Below, piece after piece: positions 3,806 to 51,873 of a DNA stretch of 64,000 nt. The first letter of the stretch is position 1. The number at the start of each line of letters is the position of its first letter. The position numbers and the translations under genes are program-made. The notes below the pieces were generated by a model that made no database searches, was not told where the DNA came from, and saw only the letters and a program-made list of their open reading frames with translations. Source of the stretch: Escherichia coli (GTDB lineage: Bacteria > Pseudomonadota > Gammaproteobacteria > Enterobacterales > Enterobacteriaceae); the NCBI RefSeq assembly GCF_009931435.1, contig NZ_CP043414.1. One strand, written 5' to 3'.

Positions 3806-5023
3806 ATGCCCGAACCCGTAGCCGAACCCGCGCTAAACGGATTGCGCCTGAATTTGCGCATTGTCTCCATTGTCATGTTTAACTTCGCCAGCTACCTCAC
3901 CATCGGGTTGCCGCTCGCTGTATTACCGGGCTATGTCCATGATGTGATGGGCTTTAGCGCTTTCTGGGCAGGATTGGTTATCAGCCTGCAATATTTCGCC
4001 ACCTTGCTGAGCCGCCCTCATGCCGGACGTTACGCCGATTTGCTGGGACCCAAAAAGATTGTCGTCTTCGGTTTATGCGGCTGCTTTTTGAGCGGTTTGG
4101 GGTATCTGACGGCAGGGTTAACCGCCAGTCTGCCCGTCATCAGCCTGTTATTACTGTGCCTGGGGCGCGTGATCCTTGGGATTGGGCAAAGTTTTGCCGG
4201 AACGGGATCGACCCTATGGGGCGTTGGCGTGGTTGGTTCGCTGCATATCGGGCGGGTGATTTCGTGGAACGGCATTGTCACTTACGGGGCGATGGCAATG
4301 GGCGCGCCGTTAGGTGTGGTGTTTTATCACTGGGGCGGCTTGCAGGCGTTAGCGTTAATCATTATGGGTGTGGCGCTGGTGGCCATTTTGTTAGCGATCC
4401 CGCGTCCGACGGTAAAAGCCAGCAAAGGCAAACCGCTGCCGTTTCGCGCGGTGCTTGGGCGTGTCTGGTTATACGGCATGGCGCTGGCGTTGGCTTCTGC
4501 CGGATTTGGCGTTATCGCCACCTTTATCACATTGTTTTATGACGCTAAAGGCTGGGACGGTGCGGCTTTTGCGCTGACGCTGTTTAGCTGTGCGTTTGTC
4601 GGTACGCGTTTGTTATTTCCTAACGGCATTAACCGTATCGGCGGCTTAAATGTGGCGATGCTCTGCTTTAGCGTTGAGATTATTGGCCTGCTGTTGGTCG
4701 GCGTGGCGACCATGCCGTGGATGGCGAAAATTGGCGTCTTACTGGCAGGGGCGGGGTTTTCGCTGGTGTTCCCGGCGCTTGGTGTGGTGGCGGTCAAAGC
4801 AGTGCCGCAGCAGAATCAGGGGGCGGCGCTGGCAACTTACACCGTATTTATGGATTTATCGCTTGGCGTGACCGGACCACTGGCTGGGCTGGTGATGAGT
4901 TGGGCGGGCGTCCCGGTGATTTATCTGGCGGCGGCGGGACTGGTCGCAATCGCGTTATTACTGACGTGGCGATTAAAAAAACGGCCTCCGGTGGAAGTAC
5001 CTGAGGCCATCTCATCATCTTAA
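3806..5023 (+). CDS. yhhS: MFS transporter YhhS
   Basis: Track ORF begins at GTG 3764; ATG at 3806 gives MPEPVAEPALNG..., the 405-aa YhhS. Confidence 0.85.
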   Translation: MPEPVAEPALNGLRLNLRIVSIVMFNFASYLTIGLPLAVLPGYVHDVMGFSAFWAGLVISLQYFATLLSRPHAGRYADLLGPKKIVVFGLCGCFLSGLGYLTAGLTASLPVISLLLLCLGRVILGIGQSFAGTGSTLWGVGVVGSLHIGRVISWNGIVTYGAMAMGAPLGVVFYHWGGLQALALIIMGVALVAILLAIPRPTVKASKGKPLPFRAVLGRVWLYGMALALASAGFGVIATFITLFYDAKGWDGAAFALTLFSCAFVGTRLLFPNGINRIGGLNVAMLCFSVEIIGLLLVGVATMPWMAKIGVLLAGAGFSLVFPALGVVAVKAVPQQNQGAALATYTVFMDLSLGVTGPLAGLVMSWAGVPVIYLAAAGLVAIALLLTWRLKKRPPVEVPEAISSS

Positions 5024-6322: not shown

Positions 6323-6542
6323 ATTGTACCTTTTTGATTAACCATTGGGGTGAGGGAACCCAATACGTACGACACGTCTGTTACCTTAACATAATAACGT
6401 GCTGACCCTTTTTTCGAGCCGCCGCATGATACTGCTTTACGTTGACAATGCAATGGTTAATTTTCACGCAATCGTTAACCTGGTTTGCTTACGGACTCAC
6501 AGGGCGTAAACTAGCGCCGTTTTTTTATGTGATGAGAAGAAA

Positions 6543-6843: not shown

Positions 6844-7079
6844 GTAGGACGGATAAGGCGTTCAAGCTGCATCTGGCGATACGGTGCACAATGCCTGATG
6901 CGACGCTGTCGCGTCTTATCATGCCTACGAGTTCTATGCTCTGTGTAGGACGGATAAGGCGTTCACGCCGCATCCGGCGGTTGTGTGTGGATGCCTGATG
7001 CGACGCTGTCGCGTCTTATCATGCCTACGAGTTCAATGCCCTGTGTAGGCCAGATAAGGCGTTTACGCCGCATCCGGCA
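6844..7079. repeat. BIME cluster of five REP units in alternating orientation
   Basis: GTAGGACGGATAAGGCGTTCA..GCATC.GGCG and its inverted partner GCCTGATGCGACGCTGTCGCGTCTTATCATGCCTAC recur with ~100-bp periodicity (units start near 6844, 6893, 6946, 6993, 7045). Confidence 0.8.
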
Positions 7080-29327: not shown

Positions 29328-31073
29328 ATGATAAAACCGACGTTTTTACGCCGGGTGGCTATTGCTGCTCTGCTCACAGGAAGTTGTTTTAGTGCTGTCG
29401 CCGCGCCACCTGCGCCGCCGCCAGTCTCGTATGGCGTGGAGGAGGATGTCTTCCATCCGGTACGCGCGAAGCAGGGGATGGTAGCATCTGTGGACGCCAC
29501 TGCCACTCAGGTGGGGGTAGATATCCTTAAACAGGGCGGGAATGCCGTTGATGCTGCCGTGGCAGTGGGCTACGCGCTGGCGGTAACGCATCCGCAGGCA
29601 GGGAATCTGGGCGGCGGCGGTTTTATGCTGATCCGCACTAAAGATGGCAATACCACCGCCATCGATTTCCGCGAAATGGCACCCGCCAAAGCGACCCGCG
29701 ATATGTTCCTTGATGATCAGGGCAACCCGGACAGCAAAAAATCTCTCACTTCGCATCTTGCTTCTGGCACACCCGGTACGGTAGCGGGCTTCTCGTTGGC
29801 GCTGGAGAAATACGGCACCATGCCGCTGAACAAAGTTGTGCAGCCTGCGTTTAAACTGGCACGCGATGGTTTTATCGTTAACGATGCGCTGGCAGACGAT
29901 CTCAAAACCTACGGCAGTGAAGTGCTACCAAATCACGAAAACAGCAAAGCTATCTTCTGGAAAGAGGGCGAACCGCTGAAAAAGGGCGACAAGCTGGTAC
30001 AGACGAATCTGGCAAAGAGCCTGGAGATGATTGCCGAAAACGGCCCGGATGAATTCTACAAAGGCACGATAGCGGAACAGATCGCCCAGGAGATGCAGAA
30101 AAACGGTGGCTTGATCACTAAAGAAGATTTAGCGGCCTATAAAGCGGTCGAACGTACACCAATAAGTGGCGATTATCGCGGGTATCAGGTTTACTCCATG
30201 CCACCGCCATCTTCCGGCGGGATCCATATCGTGCAGATCCTCAATATTCTGGAAAACTTCGATATGCAGAAATACGGCTTTGGCAGCGCCGACGCGATGC
30301 AAATCATGGCAGAAGCGGAGAAACATGCCTACGCCGATCGCTCGGAATATCTTGGCGACCCGGATTTTGTCAAAGTACCGTGGCAGGCGCTGACCAATAA
30401 AGCCTATGCCAAATCTATTGCCGATCAAATCGATATCAATAAAGCGAAGCCATCCAGCGAAATTCGTCCTGGCAAGCTTGCGCCTTATGAGAGTAATCAA
30501 ACTACCCATTACTCAGTGGTGGATAAAGACGGTAACGCCGTGGCGGTGACTTATACGCTGAACACCACCTTCGGTACGGGCATTGTCGCGGGCGAGAGCG
30601 GTATTTTGCTCAATAACCAGATGGATGATTTCTCCGCCAAACCAGGCGTACCGAACGTTTACGGGCTGGTGGGCGGCGATGCCAACGCCGTCGGGCCGAA
30701 TAAACGTCCGCTGTCATCGATGTCACCAACCATTGTGGTGAAAGACGGAAAAACCTGGCTGGTGACCGGAAGCCCAGGTGGTAGCCGGATTATCACCACT
30801 GTGCTGCAAATGGTGGTGAACAGCATCGATTATGGCATGAATGTCGCCGAAGCGACCAATGCGCCGCGTTTCCACCATCAGTGGCTGCCGGACGAGCTGC
30901 GTGTCGAGAAAGGATTTAGCCCGGATACGCTCAAGCTGCTGGAAGCAAAAGGTCAGAAAGTGGCGCTAAAAGAGGCGATGGGCAGTACGCAAAGTATTAT
31001 GGTTGGGCCGGACGGTGAGTTATACGGCGCATCCGACCCACGTTCGGTAGATGATTTAACGGCGGGGTATTAA
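29328..31073 (+). CDS. ggt: gamma-glutamyltranspeptidase Ggt
   Basis: ATG at 29328 (MIKPTFLRRVAIAALL...); 580 aa; autoprocessing Thr within ...SNQTTHYSV... Confidence 0.9.
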   Translation: MIKPTFLRRVAIAALLTGSCFSAVAAPPAPPPVSYGVEEDVFHPVRAKQGMVASVDATATQVGVDILKQGGNAVDAAVAVGYALAVTHPQAGNLGGGGFMLIRTKDGNTTAIDFREMAPAKATRDMFLDDQGNPDSKKSLTSHLASGTPGTVAGFSLALEKYGTMPLNKVVQPAFKLARDGFIVNDALADDLKTYGSEVLPNHENSKAIFWKEGEPLKKGDKLVQTNLAKSLEMIAENGPDEFYKGTIAEQIAQEMQKNGGLITKEDLAAYKAVERTPISGDYRGYQVYSMPPPSSGGIHIVQILNILENFDMQKYGFGSADAMQIMAEAEKHAYADRSEYLGDPDFVKVPWQALTNKAYAKSIADQIDINKAKPSSEIRPGKLAPYESNQTTHYSVVDKDGNAVAVTYTLNTTFGTGIVAGESGILLNNQMDDFSAKPGVPNVYGLVGGDANAVGPNKRPLSSMSPTIVVKDGKTWLVTGSPGGSRIITTVLQMVVNSIDYGMNVAEATNAPRFHHQWLPDELRVEKGFSPDTLKLLEAKGQKVALKEAMGSTQSIMVGPDGELYGASDPRSVDDLTAGY

Positions 31074-31080
31074 TATCTTA

Positions 31081-31108
31081 AGCCCTCTCCCGGTAGGTGA
31101 GGGCTTTT
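31081..31108. terminator. hairpin terminator in the 49-bp ggt/yhhY convergent gap
   Basis: AGCCCTC-11 nt loop-GAGGGCT followed by TTTTAG; directly after the ggt stop. Confidence 0.65.
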
Positions 31109-31122
31109 AGATTACAAATTCT

Positions 31123-31611
31123 CTATTTCACCCGCGCCATATAATACGCATCGACATATTCGCCATTACGAAAAGCGTAATTTTTGCCGGTACCTTCTAT
31201 GAGAAATCCGAATTTTTTATAGACTGCGATTGCTGGGGCGTTATCCGCAAACACCGTCAACTCAATACGATCTATCCGTAACCAGTTGTCGCACATTTCA
31301 ATCAATTCGCGGATCAGGGCGCTGGCGATGCCACGGTTGTGCCAGCGGGAGTCAACACAGATACCAAAAGTTGCAACATGACTGCGACGTGGGCCTTGAT
31401 AAGCTTCCACGAAAAGATGACCCACCACGATACTATCAATGCAGGCAACCAGTTGTTTAAATCCCTGGCGATCTTTCAATCTTTCTGGCCACCAGCCTTC
31501 CGAAGGATGAGGTAGTTGTAGCGTGTTGTAATACACCTCCGGTTGGGCGTGAATCTGCCTGATGGCCTCGTAATCCCGTGTTTCTGCGTGGCGTATTACT
31601 ATCTCACTCAT
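31123..31611 (-). CDS. yhhY: GNAT-family N-acetyltransferase YhhY
   Basis: Track ORF extends to 31689; ATG at 31611 gives the 162-aa MSEIVIRHAETRDYEAIRQIH... protein. Confidence 0.85.
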   Translation of the reverse strand: MSEIVIRHAETRDYEAIRQIHAQPEVYYNTLQLPHPSEGWWPERLKDRQGFKQLVACIDSIVVGHLFVEAYQGPRRSHVATFGICVDSRWHNRGIASALIRELIEMCDNWLRIDRIELTVFADNAPAIAVYKKFGFLIEGTGKNYAFRNGEYVDAYYMARVK

Positions 31612-31732: not shown

Positions 31733-31822
31733 GCGATCAGGAAGACCCTCGCGGAGAACCTGAAAGCACGACATTGCTCACATTGCTTCCAGTATTACTT
31801 AGCCAGCCGGGTGCTGGCTTTT
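31733..31822 (+). ncRNA. ryhB: iron-responsive small RNA RyhB
   Basis: 90 nt GCGATCAGGAAGACCCTCGCGGAGAACCTGAAAGCACGACATTGCTCACATTGCTTCCAGTATTACTTAGCCAGCCGGGTGCTGGCTTTT matches recalled RyhB; ends in a GCCAGC/GCTGGC hairpin plus T9; sits in the yhhY-yhhX intergenic region. Confidence 0.9.
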
Positions 31823-31945
31823 TTTTTTGACCTTTCGTTCTCAATTTATCCACGGGAAGTGCTTGTGTTTGTTATGCGCACTCCTGTAGGAACCGCGTCC
31901 GCTTTGCGCTAAGGTGTAAATAACCACCTTAAAAAGGACGAAATC

Positions 31946-33801: not shown

Positions 33802-33850
33802 AACTTAACGGCATTTTTGAAGCCTGCCTTTTTGCGGGCTTCATCGCTCG

Positions 33851-33887
33851 CCCCGGTCGCGTGCTGATGTACGCGACCGGGGTTTTG
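33851..33887 (+). terminator. rho-independent terminator downstream of yhhW
   Basis: CCCCGGTCGCG-10 nt loop-CGCGACCGGGG followed by TTTTG. Confidence 0.75.
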
Positions 33888-34024
33888 TCGCGTCTTTAGC
33901 ACAATGCGATGCAATTGATTTAGTGTATATCTAATTATTGTAAACAAGCACTGTTTTCTCCGGGAAGGTTCTGATGCGTCCGTGTTAAACTAAGAGAATC
34001 TATCTCTTTTGTACCTTCAGGACG

Positions 34025-48735: not shown

Positions 48736-50253
48736 ATGGAAAGAATAATGCAAAACAGAAAATGGATTTTGACCTCGCTGATAATGACTTTTTTCGGCAT
48801 CCCCATACTGGCGCAATTTTTGGCAGCGGTTATTGCCATGCTGGGGGCCGGGCTTGCCGCTATTCTTGAGGCTTGCAATTTACTCTTTACGCCAACAATT
48901 TATCTTCTACTCAACATCTTTATGCTGACGCTGGGGGCGATAATCCTATTTTTCTCTGGTCGCGTGTGGGCCGGTGATAGCGCACCAGAAAACAGAGAAA
49001 TAGCCGTCTGGCGGCAATGCTTTTTTCTTTTACCTGCACTGTTAACTCTGGTTGGCTGGATAATCACGCTACATCTGGCAGATTATCAACTTCGCCAGCT
49101 GGGAGCGGGTTGGTTGGCAAATCTTATGCTCCCCTGGCTGGGCGTATTGTTAGTCTCATTAGTCGGTGGTGAGTACTGGTGGATAGTCATTATTCCCGTT
49201 GGCGCGCATATCAGTTTTTCGCTGGGGTACGGCTGGCCAACCAGACATCCTTTAACCGGCACGTACGGGTTACGTTGCCGTAATTCCCTCCTGTTTATCC
49301 TTCTCATGCTGGTTTTTGTCGCTGGTTATCAGGCTTATTTATATAAACAGCTTAATCCTGGTGTTGGTGTACGCGAAAATATTGATACCTGGGCCTGGCG
49401 ACCCGATAAACTCAATAATCAACTGACGCCACTGCGTGGTAAACCGCAAATTCAGTTTACACAAAACTGGCCGCGACTCGATGGTGCTACGGCGGCGTAC
49501 CCAATTTATGCTTCTGCCTTTTATGCGTTGAGCGTTATACCGGAAGATTTCCACACCTGGGAATATCTGGAGAACTCTCGTACCCCCGATGCATATAACA
49601 GGATTGTTAAAGGTGATGCCGATATTATTTTTGTGGCGCAACCTTCCGGTGGGCAGAAAAAACGTGCAGAGGAATCGGGCGTCACTTTGAACTACACTCC
49701 TTTCGCCCGTGAAGCATTCGTTTTCATCGTCAATGCGGATAACCCGGTTAATTCCCTGACTGACCAACAGGTGCGTGACATCTTCAGTGGCGTAATTACC
49801 AACTGGCGTACTGTTGGCGGTAACGATCAGGAGATCCAGACCTGGCAACGCCCGGAAGACTCTGGCAGCCAGACAGTGATGCAATCGCAGGTCATGAAAA
49901 ATGTCCGCATGATCTCGCCGCAGGAAACCGAAGTGGCAAGCATGATGGAGGGAATGATTAAAGTTGTTGCCGAATACCGTAATACAAACAACTCAATAGG
50001 CTACACCTTCCGCTATTACGCAACACAAATGAACGCCGATAAAAATATAAAACTGCTAGCTATTAACGGTATTGCACCGACTGCGGAAAATATTCGTAAC
50101 GGCAAATATCCGTATATCGTCGATGCCTTTATGGTAACGCGGGAAAATACTACGTCAGAAACACAAAAACTGGTCGAATGGTTTTTAATGCCGCAGGGGC
50201 AGAGTCTGGTGGAAGATGTGGGCTATGTGCCGCTGTATCCAACAATGAAATAA
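48736..50253 (+). CDS. fusion protein: N-terminal polytopic membrane module (about 200 aa, 5-6 TM) plus C-terminal PstS-family (phosphate-binding-protein-like) domain
   Basis: 505-aa ORF (alternative ATG at 48748 has better SD spacing); hydrophobic N-terminus; C-terminal half is about 60% identical by eye to the next gene and carries PstS-like motifs (DIFSGVITNWRTVGG; RPEDSGSQTVM; IGYTFRYY). Confidence 0.7.
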   Translation: MERIMQNRKWILTSLIMTFFGIPILAQFLAAVIAMLGAGLAAILEACNLLFTPTIYLLLNIFMLTLGAIILFFSGRVWAGDSAPENREIAVWRQCFFLLPALLTLVGWIITLHLADYQLRQLGAGWLANLMLPWLGVLLVSLVGGEYWWIVIIPVGAHISFSLGYGWPTRHPLTGTYGLRCRNSLLFILLMLVFVAGYQAYLYKQLNPGVGVRENIDTWAWRPDKLNNQLTPLRGKPQIQFTQNWPRLDGATAAYPIYASAFYALSVIPEDFHTWEYLENSRTPDAYNRIVKGDADIIFVAQPSGGQKKRAEESGVTLNYTPFAREAFVFIVNADNPVNSLTDQQVRDIFSGVITNWRTVGGNDQEIQTWQRPEDSGSQTVMQSQVMKNVRMISPQETEVASMMEGMIKVVAEYRNTNNSIGYTFRYYATQMNADKNIKLLAINGIAPTAENIRNGKYPYIVDAFMVTRENTTSETQKLVEWFLMPQGQSLVEDVGYVPLYPTMK

Positions 50254-50278
50254 CGCTCGAGAGAAAGGAATCAGCGCA

Positions 50279-51271
50279 ATGAATAAATTCACCGGTGTTT
50301 TACTATTAGGTACGGCGTTACTGGCGGGATGTGTCGACCGGGAAGGGTACTATAACAGCGTCAGGGAAGAAGAGAGTCATGGACTGACGTCTCTGCGGGG
50401 GCAACCTGAATTACGTTACAGCGATGATTGGTCAAGATGGCCGAGAGTGTACGGCGCTACAGCCTTATACCCGCTGTATGCCTCCGCGTATTATGAATTA
50501 GTACCCGAGCCAAAAGATAAGGATCGAACCTCGCTGGCCTGGCAGGCGTATGGTTTGCAACAAACCCGAACAGCTGAAGCCTACGATAGTCTGATCAAGG
50601 GTACCGCGACGGTTATTTTTGTTGCACAACCGTCGGAAGGACAGAAAAAACGTGCAGAAGAAGCAGGCGTTAAACTGAAATATACCGCGTTTGCCCGCGA
50701 AGCCTTTGTCTTTATCGTTGATATCAAAAACCCGGTTAATTCACTTAGCGAACAGCAGGTCAAAGACATTTTTAGCGGTAAAGTGAGTCGCTGGAATAAA
50801 GTGGGCGGCGGTGACGAAAGTATAAAAGTCTGGCAGCGGCCAGAAGATTCTGGAAGCCAAACGGTTATGAAGGGACTGGTTATGCAAGATACTCCAATGC
50901 TGCCAGCCAAAAAATCCACTGTTATCGATCTTATGGGCGGTTTAATTACCGAAGTCGCCGACTACCAAAACACACCATCTTCCATTGGATACACCTTCCA
51001 CTATTACGTCACACGTATGAATGACAATATGCTCAAAATGCGCAAACAGATCAAACTGCTGGCTATAAATGGCGTTGCACCTACAGAGGAAAATATCCGT
51101 AACGGCACTTATCCGTACATAATTGATGCTTATATGGTGACGCACGAAAACCCTACGCTGGAAACGCAGAAATTCGTCGACTGGTTTTTAAGCCCGCAGG
51201 GACAGCAATTGGTAGAGGATGTGGGGTATGTGCCGATTCATGACGCATCATACGAATCATCAGTGCAATAA
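50279..51271 (+). CDS. PstS-family (phosphate-binding-protein-like) lipoprotein
   Basis: 330 aa; lipobox LLAGC after signal peptide; AAGGAA SD 8 nt upstream; motifs GATALYPLYASAY, DIFSGKVSRWNKVGG, RPEDSGSQTVM, IGYTFHYY align to E. coli PstS motifs (GAGATFPAPVYAKW, IYLGKIKKWDD, RRADGSGTSFVF, IGYVEYAY). Confidence 0.75.
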   Translation: MNKFTGVLLLGTALLAGCVDREGYYNSVREEESHGLTSLRGQPELRYSDDWSRWPRVYGATALYPLYASAYYELVPEPKDKDRTSLAWQAYGLQQTRTAEAYDSLIKGTATVIFVAQPSEGQKKRAEEAGVKLKYTAFAREAFVFIVDIKNPVNSLSEQQVKDIFSGKVSRWNKVGGGDESIKVWQRPEDSGSQTVMKGLVMQDTPMLPAKKSTVIDLMGGLITEVADYQNTPSSIGYTFHYYVTRMNDNMLKMRKQIKLLAINGVAPTEENIRNGTYPYIIDAYMVTHENPTLETQKFVDWFLSPQGQQLVEDVGYVPIHDASYESSVQ

Positions 51272-51873
51272 TGATGAATAAAATCAGACTTTATATTCCT
51301 CCGTTAATTCTTGGTTTTGTTATTGTGCCGTTGTTGGTGTGGCCGACGGTGGTTGCGCTGGCTGCTTCTGTTATCACGCTGAGTTTTCTGGGAGAGATAC
51401 TGTTCTCTATCCCGCTCATGATCAGGCATATTTCGCTTCTGCAATTACAACTATGGTTATCGGCTGAATATGCGCTTTTCTGCTGTGCAATGGTGGGCGT
51501 TGGTTGGCAATTTGCTCGTATAACTCAATCTGAATTGAAAAGCAGACTGCATTGTTGGCTGGTATTTGCACCAGTTTATTTCTGGTTGCTCCTGTGGAAT
51601 ATCATTTTCTATGTCGCGCCAGCGAATATTGCGTTGCTGGAGAATATGCGCAGTTTCTTTCTGACAGTTGTCTGGCTCCCACTAAATTTTTCACCATTTT
51701 GGTCCCAACCGTGGATTGACTTTGTCGGTCCAATAAGCGCACAGCTTGGTTTTGCGTTGGGATATTATTGCCAGTGGCGTAGCAAAAATAGAAGCCAGAT
51801 ACGGAAGTGGAGTGAGTGGGGAACGTGCCTGAGTTTTGTTACGTTGGGTATGATGGCGTGGGCTTTGCGGTAA
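51271..51873 (+). CDS. polytopic membrane protein, paralog of the N-terminal module of cluster gene 1
   Basis: 200 aa; ATG overlaps previous stop (TAATG); segment VGPISAQLGFALGYY resembles VGAHISFSLGYGW in gene 1. Confidence 0.65.
   Translation: MMNKIRLYIPPLILGFVIVPLLVWPTVVALAASVITLSFLGEILFSIPLMIRHISLLQLQLWLSAEYALFCCAMVGVGWQFARITQSELKSRLHCWLVFAPVYFWLLLWNIIFYVAPANIALLENMRSFFLTVVWLPLNFSPFWSQPWIDFVGPISAQLGFALGYYCQWRSKNRSQIRKWSEWGTCLSFVTLGMMAWALR

What the first reader, a model, noticed from the sequence alone, without database searches (positions are those of the whole stretch)
31074..31122. ggt and yhhY are separated by only 49 bp: the K-12 yhhZ-yrhA-IS1-yrhB segment is absent
In K-12, as I recall, roughly 3.5 kb carrying yhhZ, yrhA, an IS1 copy and yrhB lies between yhhY and ggt. 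Here the ggt stop (31071-31073) and the yhhY stop (31123-31125) are convergent across one shared hairpin. This marks the window as non-K-12 and shows the empty site of that island. No target-site duplication or IS scar is visible in the 49 bp.
Basis: partly seen in the sequence, partly recalled or inferred. Interest (0 to 1): 0.35.

Follow-up and report, generated by a model that had tools for sequence, protein, structure and literature searches.

The report
Ancestral empty ggt–yhhY junction
The two genes ggt and yhhY sit tail-to-tail 49 bases apart because this strain never received the small toxin–immunity island that K-12 carries there; this is the ancestral arrangement, common and ordinary.

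Summary
The ggt stop is at 31071-31073 and the yhhY stop at 31123-31125. The 49 bp between them hold one GC-rich hairpin (31080-31106).

In K-12 the two stops are 3454 bp apart, with yrhB, yrhD, IS1, yrhA and yhhZ between them.

The "empty site" reading holds, with three refinements.
- **Adjacency is ancestral.** E. albertii, E. whittamii and about 30 other enterobacterial species have the same convergent pair, 34-122 bp apart, always with a hairpin. The low-GC island (33-36% against 51-55% in the flanks) is the derived state.
- **The site is common and takes several forms.** It is empty in 910 of 5426 complete E. coli genomes. At least four other states exist: yrhB only, the intact island, an O157 DUF4225 gene and an IS1 deletion form.
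- **The island sits between the hairpin and the yhhY stop.** K-12 keeps a related hairpin next to ggt.

The window's 49-bp form is a rare variant (about 17 genomes) of the usual 60-bp spacer, shortened by 11 bp. No remnant of the island or of IS1 occurs anywhere in the window.

The window is only about 95% identical to K-12, so it comes from a divergent lineage labelled E. coli.

Side observation: an internal block of yhhY is only about 77% identical to other Escherichia alleles.

Verdict: already known, low interest.

The parts
29328..31073 (+). ggt (gamma-glutamyltransferase), 581 aa, stop TAA 31071-31073
   Evidence: ORF list. It is 98-100% aa identical to annotated ggt of K-12 and RMDEC465.
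31074..31122 (.). 49-bp spacer between the convergent stops: the unoccupied, ancestral-type site of the yhhZ-yrhA-yrhD-yrhB island
   Evidence: It is collinear with the 60-bp spacer of E. coli B2/D strains, Escherichia sp. E1V33 and E. albertii.
31080..31106 (.). GC-rich hairpin AAGCCCTC-TCCCGGTAGGT-GAGGGCTT, readable on both strands; a likely 3'-end or terminator structure for ggt and possibly yhhY
   Evidence: Folds. Conserved with some compensatory changes across Escherichia. The simple terminator scan found nothing.
31106..31109 (.). Position of an 11-bp deletion relative to the usual 60-bp Escherichia spacer (GGGCTT[AAATGACAAAC..]TAGATT)
   Evidence: Alignments. The 49-bp form occurs in about 17 of 5426 genomes.
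31123..31611 (-). yhhY (GNAT N-acetyltransferase), 162 aa, stop TAG at 31123-31125
   Evidence: Pfam Acetyltransf_1, E 1.9e-16. Annotated yhhY in related genomes.
31173..31517 (-). Internal yhhY block of a deeply divergent allele class (about 77% DNA identity to other Escherichia yhhY); adjacent to the finding but not part of it

Best explanation
The 49 bp are the ancestral intergenic spacer between the convergent core genes ggt and yhhY. They hold one conserved GC-rich stem-loop that most likely marks or stabilises the 3' ends of the two transcripts. It is a plausible but weak intrinsic terminator for ggt and a poorer one for yhhY. In most E. coli, a low-GC cassette was inserted between this hairpin and the yhhY stop. 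The cassette encodes an orphan Hcp-HNH toxin (yhhZ), its presumed immunity gene (yrhA), yrhD and an Imm35-family protein (yrhB). K-12 later acquired an IS1 inside yrhA. The window's lineage, a divergent branch labelled E. coli, never received the cassette. Its only local change is an 11-bp deletion just 3' of the hairpin. Shown here: the coordinates, the K-12 order, the population frequencies, adjacency in outgroups, the low GC content of the island and the absence of remnants. Inferred: the direction of the event (gain rather than loss), the role of the hairpin and the toxin/immunity function of the island genes.
For: - **Coordinates and hairpin:**
- **K-12 order:** the two stops are 3454 bp apart. 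Homology between window and K-12 stops at 31073 and resumes at 31124.
- **Outgroups:** in 31 of the species loci recovered with YhhY, ggt lies directly downstream of yhhY and convergent with it, 34-122 bp away, each time with a strong hairpin. These include E. albertii, E. whittamii, Escherichia sp. E1V33, Citrobacter, Enterobacter, Klebsiella, Lelliottia and Pluralibacter.
- **Population counts among 5426 complete genomes:**
  - empty site with this hairpin: 910;
  - ggt and yhhY within about 1.1 kb: 1241;
  - yhhZ-yrhA present: 3830, almost always a single copy;
  - yrhB present: 4431.
- **Composition:** the island is 33-36% GC and the O157 insert 32%, against 51-55% in the flanks.
- **Hairpin in occupied alleles:** the K-12, O157 and yrhB-only alleles all keep a related hairpin (GCCCTCTTC..GAAGAGGGC) directly after the ggt stop. 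It aligns with the Escherichia hairpin core.
- **Island genes:** Pfam gives YhhZ as T6SS_HCP plus a sub-threshold HNH match, and YrhB as Imm35. The literature describes YhhZ as an 'evolved Hcp' with a degenerate HNH domain (PMC2907695) and as His-Me finger group 32 (PMC5714182). It lists yhhZ-yrhAB as a predicted genomic island (PMC3309015).
- **IS1:** in K-12 it sits inside yrhA with a target duplication. Most carriers of the island have an intact yrhA.
- **Same lineage:** the close relative R32_14_1F also has the empty site, in the 60-bp form.
Against: - Direction is inferred by parsimony from outgroups. A lineage that once carried the island could regain an empty allele by homologous recombination in ggt and yhhY, and this cannot be excluded.
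- The terminator role is not shown. The consensus scan found no terminator. The U-run is only UUUU on the ggt side and is absent on the yhhY side.
- Homology between the 'occupied' and 'empty' hairpins rests on a short palindromic core of a type that is common in enterobacteria.
- E. fergusonii, E. marmotae and Salmonella were not recovered in the outgroup scan.
Confidence: 0.85

Rival explanations
1. Secondary loss. The window's ancestors carried the yhhZ island and lost it, either by precise deletion or by homologous replacement of the ggt-yhhY interval with an empty allele from another strain.
For: The region is recombinogenic. Divergence in ggt and yhhY is high and mosaic. yhhY in the window carries an imported-looking internal block. 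Phylogroup B2 has both states: ST131 is empty and Nissle 1917 is occupied. An IS1-mediated deletion form also exists.
Against: The window's hairpin is the AAGCCCTC type found in other Escherichia species, not the GGCCCTCTTC type that every occupied allele has next to ggt. A simple deletion from a K-12-like allele is therefore excluded. No remnants are present. The close relatives R32_14_1F and RMDEC465 are also empty. The divergent yhhY block (31173-31517) does not reach the spacer.
Confidence: 0.1
2. The hairpin has no transcript-related role. It is a copy of a dispersed enterobacterial palindromic repeat that happens to occupy this intergenic space.
For: In other genera the same spacer holds REP-like units (GCCGGGTGGCG...) and CCCTCTCCC/GGGAGAGGG palindromes, sometimes two or three copies. 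E. albertii carries the hairpin in inverted orientation. No consensus terminator was found.
Against: Some hairpin is present at this position in all 31 adjacent-gene loci, whatever its sequence family. Within Escherichia the stem keeps pairing through changes on both sides in 3 of 11 pairs. This fits selection for structure between convergent genes. The two roles are also not mutually exclusive.
Confidence: 0.2
3. Assembly artefact: a collapsed or mis-joined junction created the short spacer.
For: None.
Against: A 109-bp stretch across the junction is 100% identical in the complete genome MFDS1022581 and at least 99% identical in 13 genomes. The 60-bp form occurs in about 895 complete genomes.
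Confidence: 0.01

Closest known systems
E. coli K-12 yhhZ-yrhA::IS1-yrhD-yrhB segment (b3442-b3446) between yhhY and ggt
   Same: The flanking genes and their convergent orientation are the same, and a related GC-rich hairpin follows the ggt stop directly.
   Different: The window lacks all 3454 bp. Its hairpin is the AAGCCCTC type rather than GGCCCTCTTC. The flanks are only about 95% identical to K-12, and yhhY about 80%.
Empty ggt|yhhY junction of E. coli B2/D strains (e.g. AR_0058, ST131, 042) and of E. albertii / Escherichia sp. E1V33
   Same: The spacer has the same architecture: TATCTTAAGCCCTCTCCCGGTAGGTGAGGGCTT ... ATTCT, then the yhhY stop.
   Different: Those spacers are 60-62 bp. The window and about 17 complete genomes have an 11-bp deletion immediately 3' of the hairpin.
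Orphan 'evolved Hcp' / Hcp-toxin plus immunity cassettes (YhhZ type; PMC2907695, PMC5714182)
   Same: This is the class of element that occupies the site in most E. coli: low GC, no integrase, an Hcp domain fused to an HNH-like domain, and Imm35 YrhB alongside.
   Different: The window contains no such cassette. It shows only the site where the cassette would be.

Membership tests
Unoccupied (empty) site of the yhhZ-yrhA-yrhB island | Both flanking genes (ggt, yhhY) are present, orthologous and in the same relative orientation as in the occupied genome | tested here: met
Unoccupied (empty) site of the yhhZ-yrhA-yrhB island | No island gene or fragment lies between the flanks | tested here: met
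   The gap is 49 bp. blastn (E<=1) of the island DNA found only chance matches of 13-28 nt, none in the spacer. tblastn (E<=1) of YhhZ, YrhA, YrhB, YrhD and the O157 DUF4225 protein found only short weak matches of 26-37 aa, also none in the spacer.
Unoccupied (empty) site of the yhhZ-yrhA-yrhB island | The junction is collinear with that of outgroup species (ancestral rather than scarred) | tested here: met
   The spacer aligns end to end with those of E. coli B2/D, Escherichia sp. E1V33 and E. albertii. Adjacency was found in 31 species loci.
Unoccupied (empty) site of the yhhZ-yrhA-yrhB island | The island is absent from the rest of the genome (not relocated) | not testable with these tools
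   Only the 64-kb window is available, and it holds no homologue. Indirect support: yhhZ occurs at 3847 places in 3830 genomes, so it is essentially single-copy at this locus.
IS1 excision or deletion scar | IS1 terminal repeat remnant, or an 8-9 bp target-site duplication, at the junction | tested here: not met
   There is no IS1 similarity anywhere in the window. The K-12 IS1 lies inside yrhA with its own duplication.
Intrinsic (Rho-independent) terminator, bidirectional | GC-rich stem-loop | tested here: met
   An 8-bp stem plus 2 inner pairs; -18.8 kcal/mol, z -4.7
Intrinsic (Rho-independent) terminator, bidirectional | U-rich tract directly 3' of the stem on each transcribed strand | tested here: inconclusive
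   The + strand (ggt) tail is UUUUAGAUU, which is borderline. The - strand (yhhY) tail is AAGAUAUUAA, which is poor. The consensus scan reported 0 sites.
Intrinsic (Rho-independent) terminator, bidirectional | Transcripts end at the structure | not testable with these tools
   This needs Term-seq or 3' RACE.

The most novel reading that the evidence does not exclude
The short stretch between the ggt hairpin and the yhhY stop may be a dedicated hotspot where E. coli repeatedly swaps low-GC conflict cassettes without any integrase. At least five occupied states are seen: the Hcp-HNH/YrhA/YrhD/Imm35 island, its K-12 form with IS1 in yrhA, Imm35 alone, a DUF4225 gene, and an IS1-deleted form. The neighbouring GNAT gene yhhY, which carries a xenologous internal block in the window, may itself be part of this conflict locus and under diversifying or allele-replacement selection.
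Probability: 0.15. Interest if true: 0.35.

Novelty: already known. Interest (0 to 1): 0.12.

Why it matters
It matters little. The finding correctly identifies a presence/absence polymorphism of a small accessory island that is annotated in K-12 and has been flagged as a genomic island in the literature. The useful points are that the empty state is ancestral and that it occurs in about 17% of complete E. coli genomes. The site also hosts several alternative low-GC cassettes, which makes it a convenient strain-typing marker and a small example of integrase-free cassette turnover between convergent core genes. The divergent yhhY block next to it is the only item that might merit a separate look.

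Tried and rejected
- **'TATCTTA' as a target duplication.** The 7-mer follows the ggt stop in the empty site and abuts the yhhY stop in K-12. I rejected it as a duplication or attachment core. In K-12 it includes the stop codon itself, no similarity extends beyond it, and the O157 and yrhB-only alleles lack it.
- **'AATGACA' near both junctions.** This was judged a chance match.
- **Terminator scan.** It found nothing, so the terminator role stays an inference.
- **Rfam scan of the whole window.** It found no family in the spacer, only RyhB and naRNA4 elsewhere.
- **Does the divergent yhhY allele explain the island's absence through one imported segment?** Rejected. The divergent block (31173-31517) ends about 50 bp before the spacer, and R32_14_1F has the ordinary yhhY allele yet is also empty.
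- **Donor of the yhhY block.** No GTDB species representative exceeds 83% aa identity.
- **YhhY literature search.** It gave nothing relevant to the junction.

Full report
**Observation**

- ggt runs on the + strand from ATG 29328 to TAA 31071-31073.
- yhhY runs on the - strand, with its stop TAG at 31123-31125 and its 162-aa frame starting at 31611.
- The spacer is exactly 49 bp (31074-31122).

The spacer contains a single GC-rich hairpin, with arms at 31080-31087 and 31099-31106. Both strands fold well (-25.6 and -25.0 kcal/mol in a 76-nt context, z -2.75 and -3.1). The spacer alone gives -18.8 kcal/mol, z -4.7.

**The K-12 comparison**

After the ggt stop come yrhB, yrhD, an IS1, yrhA, yhhZ (annotated tssD/Hcp1 family effector) and then the yhhY stop. 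The two stops are 3454 bp apart.

Pairwise BLAST shows that homology between window and K-12 ends at 31073 and resumes at 31124, exactly at the two stop codons. No fragment of the K-12 island, its IS1, the O157 insert or the yrhB-only insert occurs anywhere in the 64-kb window.

**How common the empty site is**

Among 5426 complete E. coli genomes:

| State | Genomes |
|---|---|
| ggt and yhhY in one place, within about 1.1 kb | 1241 |
| Empty junction with this hairpin | 910 |
| — of which the 60-bp spacer (B2 such as ST131, D such as 042) | about 895 |
| — of which the window's 49-bp form | about 17 |
| yhhZ-yrhA present, essentially always once | 3830 |
| yrhB present | 4431 |

Further states of the site were seen:
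- yrhB alone, 431 bp (L004);
- a DUF4225 gene in O157:H7, 1855 bp;
- a yrhB-IS1-yhhY deletion form.

Most island carriers have an intact yrhA. The K-12 IS1 is a secondary insertion with its own target duplication.

**Direction of the event**

A scan of one genome per GTDB species with the window's YhhY returned 40 loci. In 31 of them, ggt lies directly downstream of yhhY and convergent with it. These include E. albertii, E. whittamii, Escherichia sp. E1V33, Citrobacter, Enterobacter, Klebsiella, Lelliottia, Pluralibacter and Huaxiibacter. The spacers are 34-122 bp and always fold into a strong hairpin.

The K-12 island is 33-36% GC (IS1 excluded) and the O157 insert 32%, against 51-55% for ggt, yhhY and yhhX.

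Adjacency is therefore the ancestral state, and the cassettes are horizontally acquired insertions within E. coli. 'Empty site' is right in the sense of never occupied. It is not an excision scar.

**Where the island went in**

All occupied alleles (K-12, yrhB-only, O157, IS1 deletion form) share the sequence GGTTAGCGGCCCTCTTCGTGGGAAGAGGGC directly after the ggt stop. This aligns with the hairpin core of the Escherichia spacers. It most resembles the E. whittamii and SCPM-O-B-8794 versions.

The cassettes thus lie between the ggt-proximal hairpin and the yhhY stop. This corresponds to roughly 31107-31122 in the window. No direct repeats flank them.

The window's hairpin is of the AAGCCCTC type, so it cannot derive from a K-12-like allele by simple deletion.

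**The 49-bp form**

The window's spacer equals the 60-bp Escherichia spacer minus 11 nt immediately 3' of the hairpin. It is shared with RMDEC465, MFDS1022581 and a few other genomes. The deletion leaves GGGCUUUUAGAUU on the ggt strand, a slightly better U-run than in the 60-bp form.

**Role of the hairpin**

A structure is conserved at this position across genera even though its sequence family changes. Within Escherichia, 3 of 11 pairs show changes on both sides that keep pairing.

The most likely role is a 3'-end or terminator structure between convergent genes. This is not proven. The consensus scan found no terminator, and the U-tract is weak on the ggt side and absent on the yhhY side.

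**What the absent island is**

- YhhZ matches Pfam T6SS_HCP (E 1.6e-11) plus a sub-threshold HNH match.
- YrhB is Imm35 (E 4e-23).
- YrhA and YrhD match nothing.

Published work describes YhhZ as an orphan 'evolved Hcp' with a degenerate HNH domain (PMC2907695) and as a His-Me finger group (PMC5714182). It lists yhhZ-yrhAB as a predicted genomic island (PMC3309015). The polymorphism is therefore already known in kind.

**Origin of the window**

Across ugp-ggt and yhhY-gntR the window is about 95% identical to K-12, O157 and 042. It is about 94% identical to a B2 strain and 93-94% to other Escherichia species representatives. It is 98-98.9% identical to RMDEC465 and R32_14_1F.

Over a 24-kb stretch, essentially all 5400 E. 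coli genomes fall at about 95-96.6%. The window therefore comes from a divergent lineage labelled E. coli. A cryptic-clade-I-like lineage is my inference and was not tested. Its relatives are also empty at this site.

**Side observation**

Inside yhhY, about 31173-31517 is only about 77% identical to every other Escherichia yhhY sampled. Those alleles are 91-96% identical to one another. The sequence on both sides of the block is 97-100% identical to R32_14_1F.

The allele class is shared with RMDEC465 (100%) and E. coli 042 (96.5%), and occurs in about 161 complete genomes. No species representative exceeds 83% aa identity, so the donor is unknown.

The block stops about 50 bp short of the spacer, and R32_14_1F lacks it yet is also empty. 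It therefore does not explain the island's absence.

**Verdict**

The feature is the ordinary ancestral junction of a known accessory-island site. Interest is low.

Noticed in passing
window 31173-31517 (inside yhhY, - strand): This internal block is about 77% identical to all other Escherichia yhhY alleles sampled, which are 91-96% identical to each other. It is 100% identical to RMDEC465 and 96.5% to E. coli 042. The flanks of the block are 97-100% identical to R32_14_1F. About 161 of 5426 complete genomes carry this allele class. The donor is unknown: no GTDB species representative exceeds 83% aa identity.
   Followed up: partly
window 31106-31109: There is an 11-bp deletion, relative to the usual 60-bp Escherichia spacer, immediately 3' of the hairpin. 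It is a rare variant (about 17 of 5426 genomes) and lengthens the U-run after the ggt hairpin.
   Followed up: yes
window 31762-31826 (+): The RyhB sRNA gene (Rfam RF00057, 83 bits) lies between yhhY and yhhX. This matches its K-12 position as I recall it, which I did not check here.
   Followed up: no
window 6948-7025 (+): Match to naRNA4 (Rfam RF02564, 67.5 bits), a REP-derived nucleoid-associated RNA.
   Followed up: no
L007 (E. albertii) spacer, locus ~6457-6518: The E. albertii hairpin (AAGCCCTCTCGCCTACCGGGAGAGGGCTT) is essentially the reverse complement of the E. coli one. This is a hairpin inversion in place.
   Followed up: no
L009 (MAG 'uncultured Flavihumibacter sp.') and L035 ('Chryseobacterium sp. 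18061'): Contigs assigned to Bacteroidota carry enterobacterial yhhX-yhhY-yhhZ-yrhA-yrhD (98-100% aa identical to K-12 for YhhZ, YrhA and YrhD) or yhhX-yhhY-ggt. This is probably contamination in public assemblies.
   Followed up: no
window 48736-51873 (+): Three ORFs (505, 330 and 200 aa) lie between glgP and glpD. In R32_14_1F they are annotated as two PstS-family phosphate-binding proteins plus a hypothetical protein. K-12-type genomes cover only about 88% of window 36000-60000, so this segment may be another accessory insertion.
   Followed up: partly
window 29328-29420 (ggt 5' end): ggt length varies between lineages: 581 aa here and in RMDEC465, 580 aa in K-12 and 577 aa in a B2 strain. 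The indel was not located; the Ala/Pro-rich signal-peptide end (AAPPAPPPV) is a guess.
   Followed up: no
window 33802-33963 (yhhW-gntR intergenic): Alignments to B2 and to other Escherichia species break here, while K-12 aligns through. This is a small variable intergenic segment.
   Followed up: no
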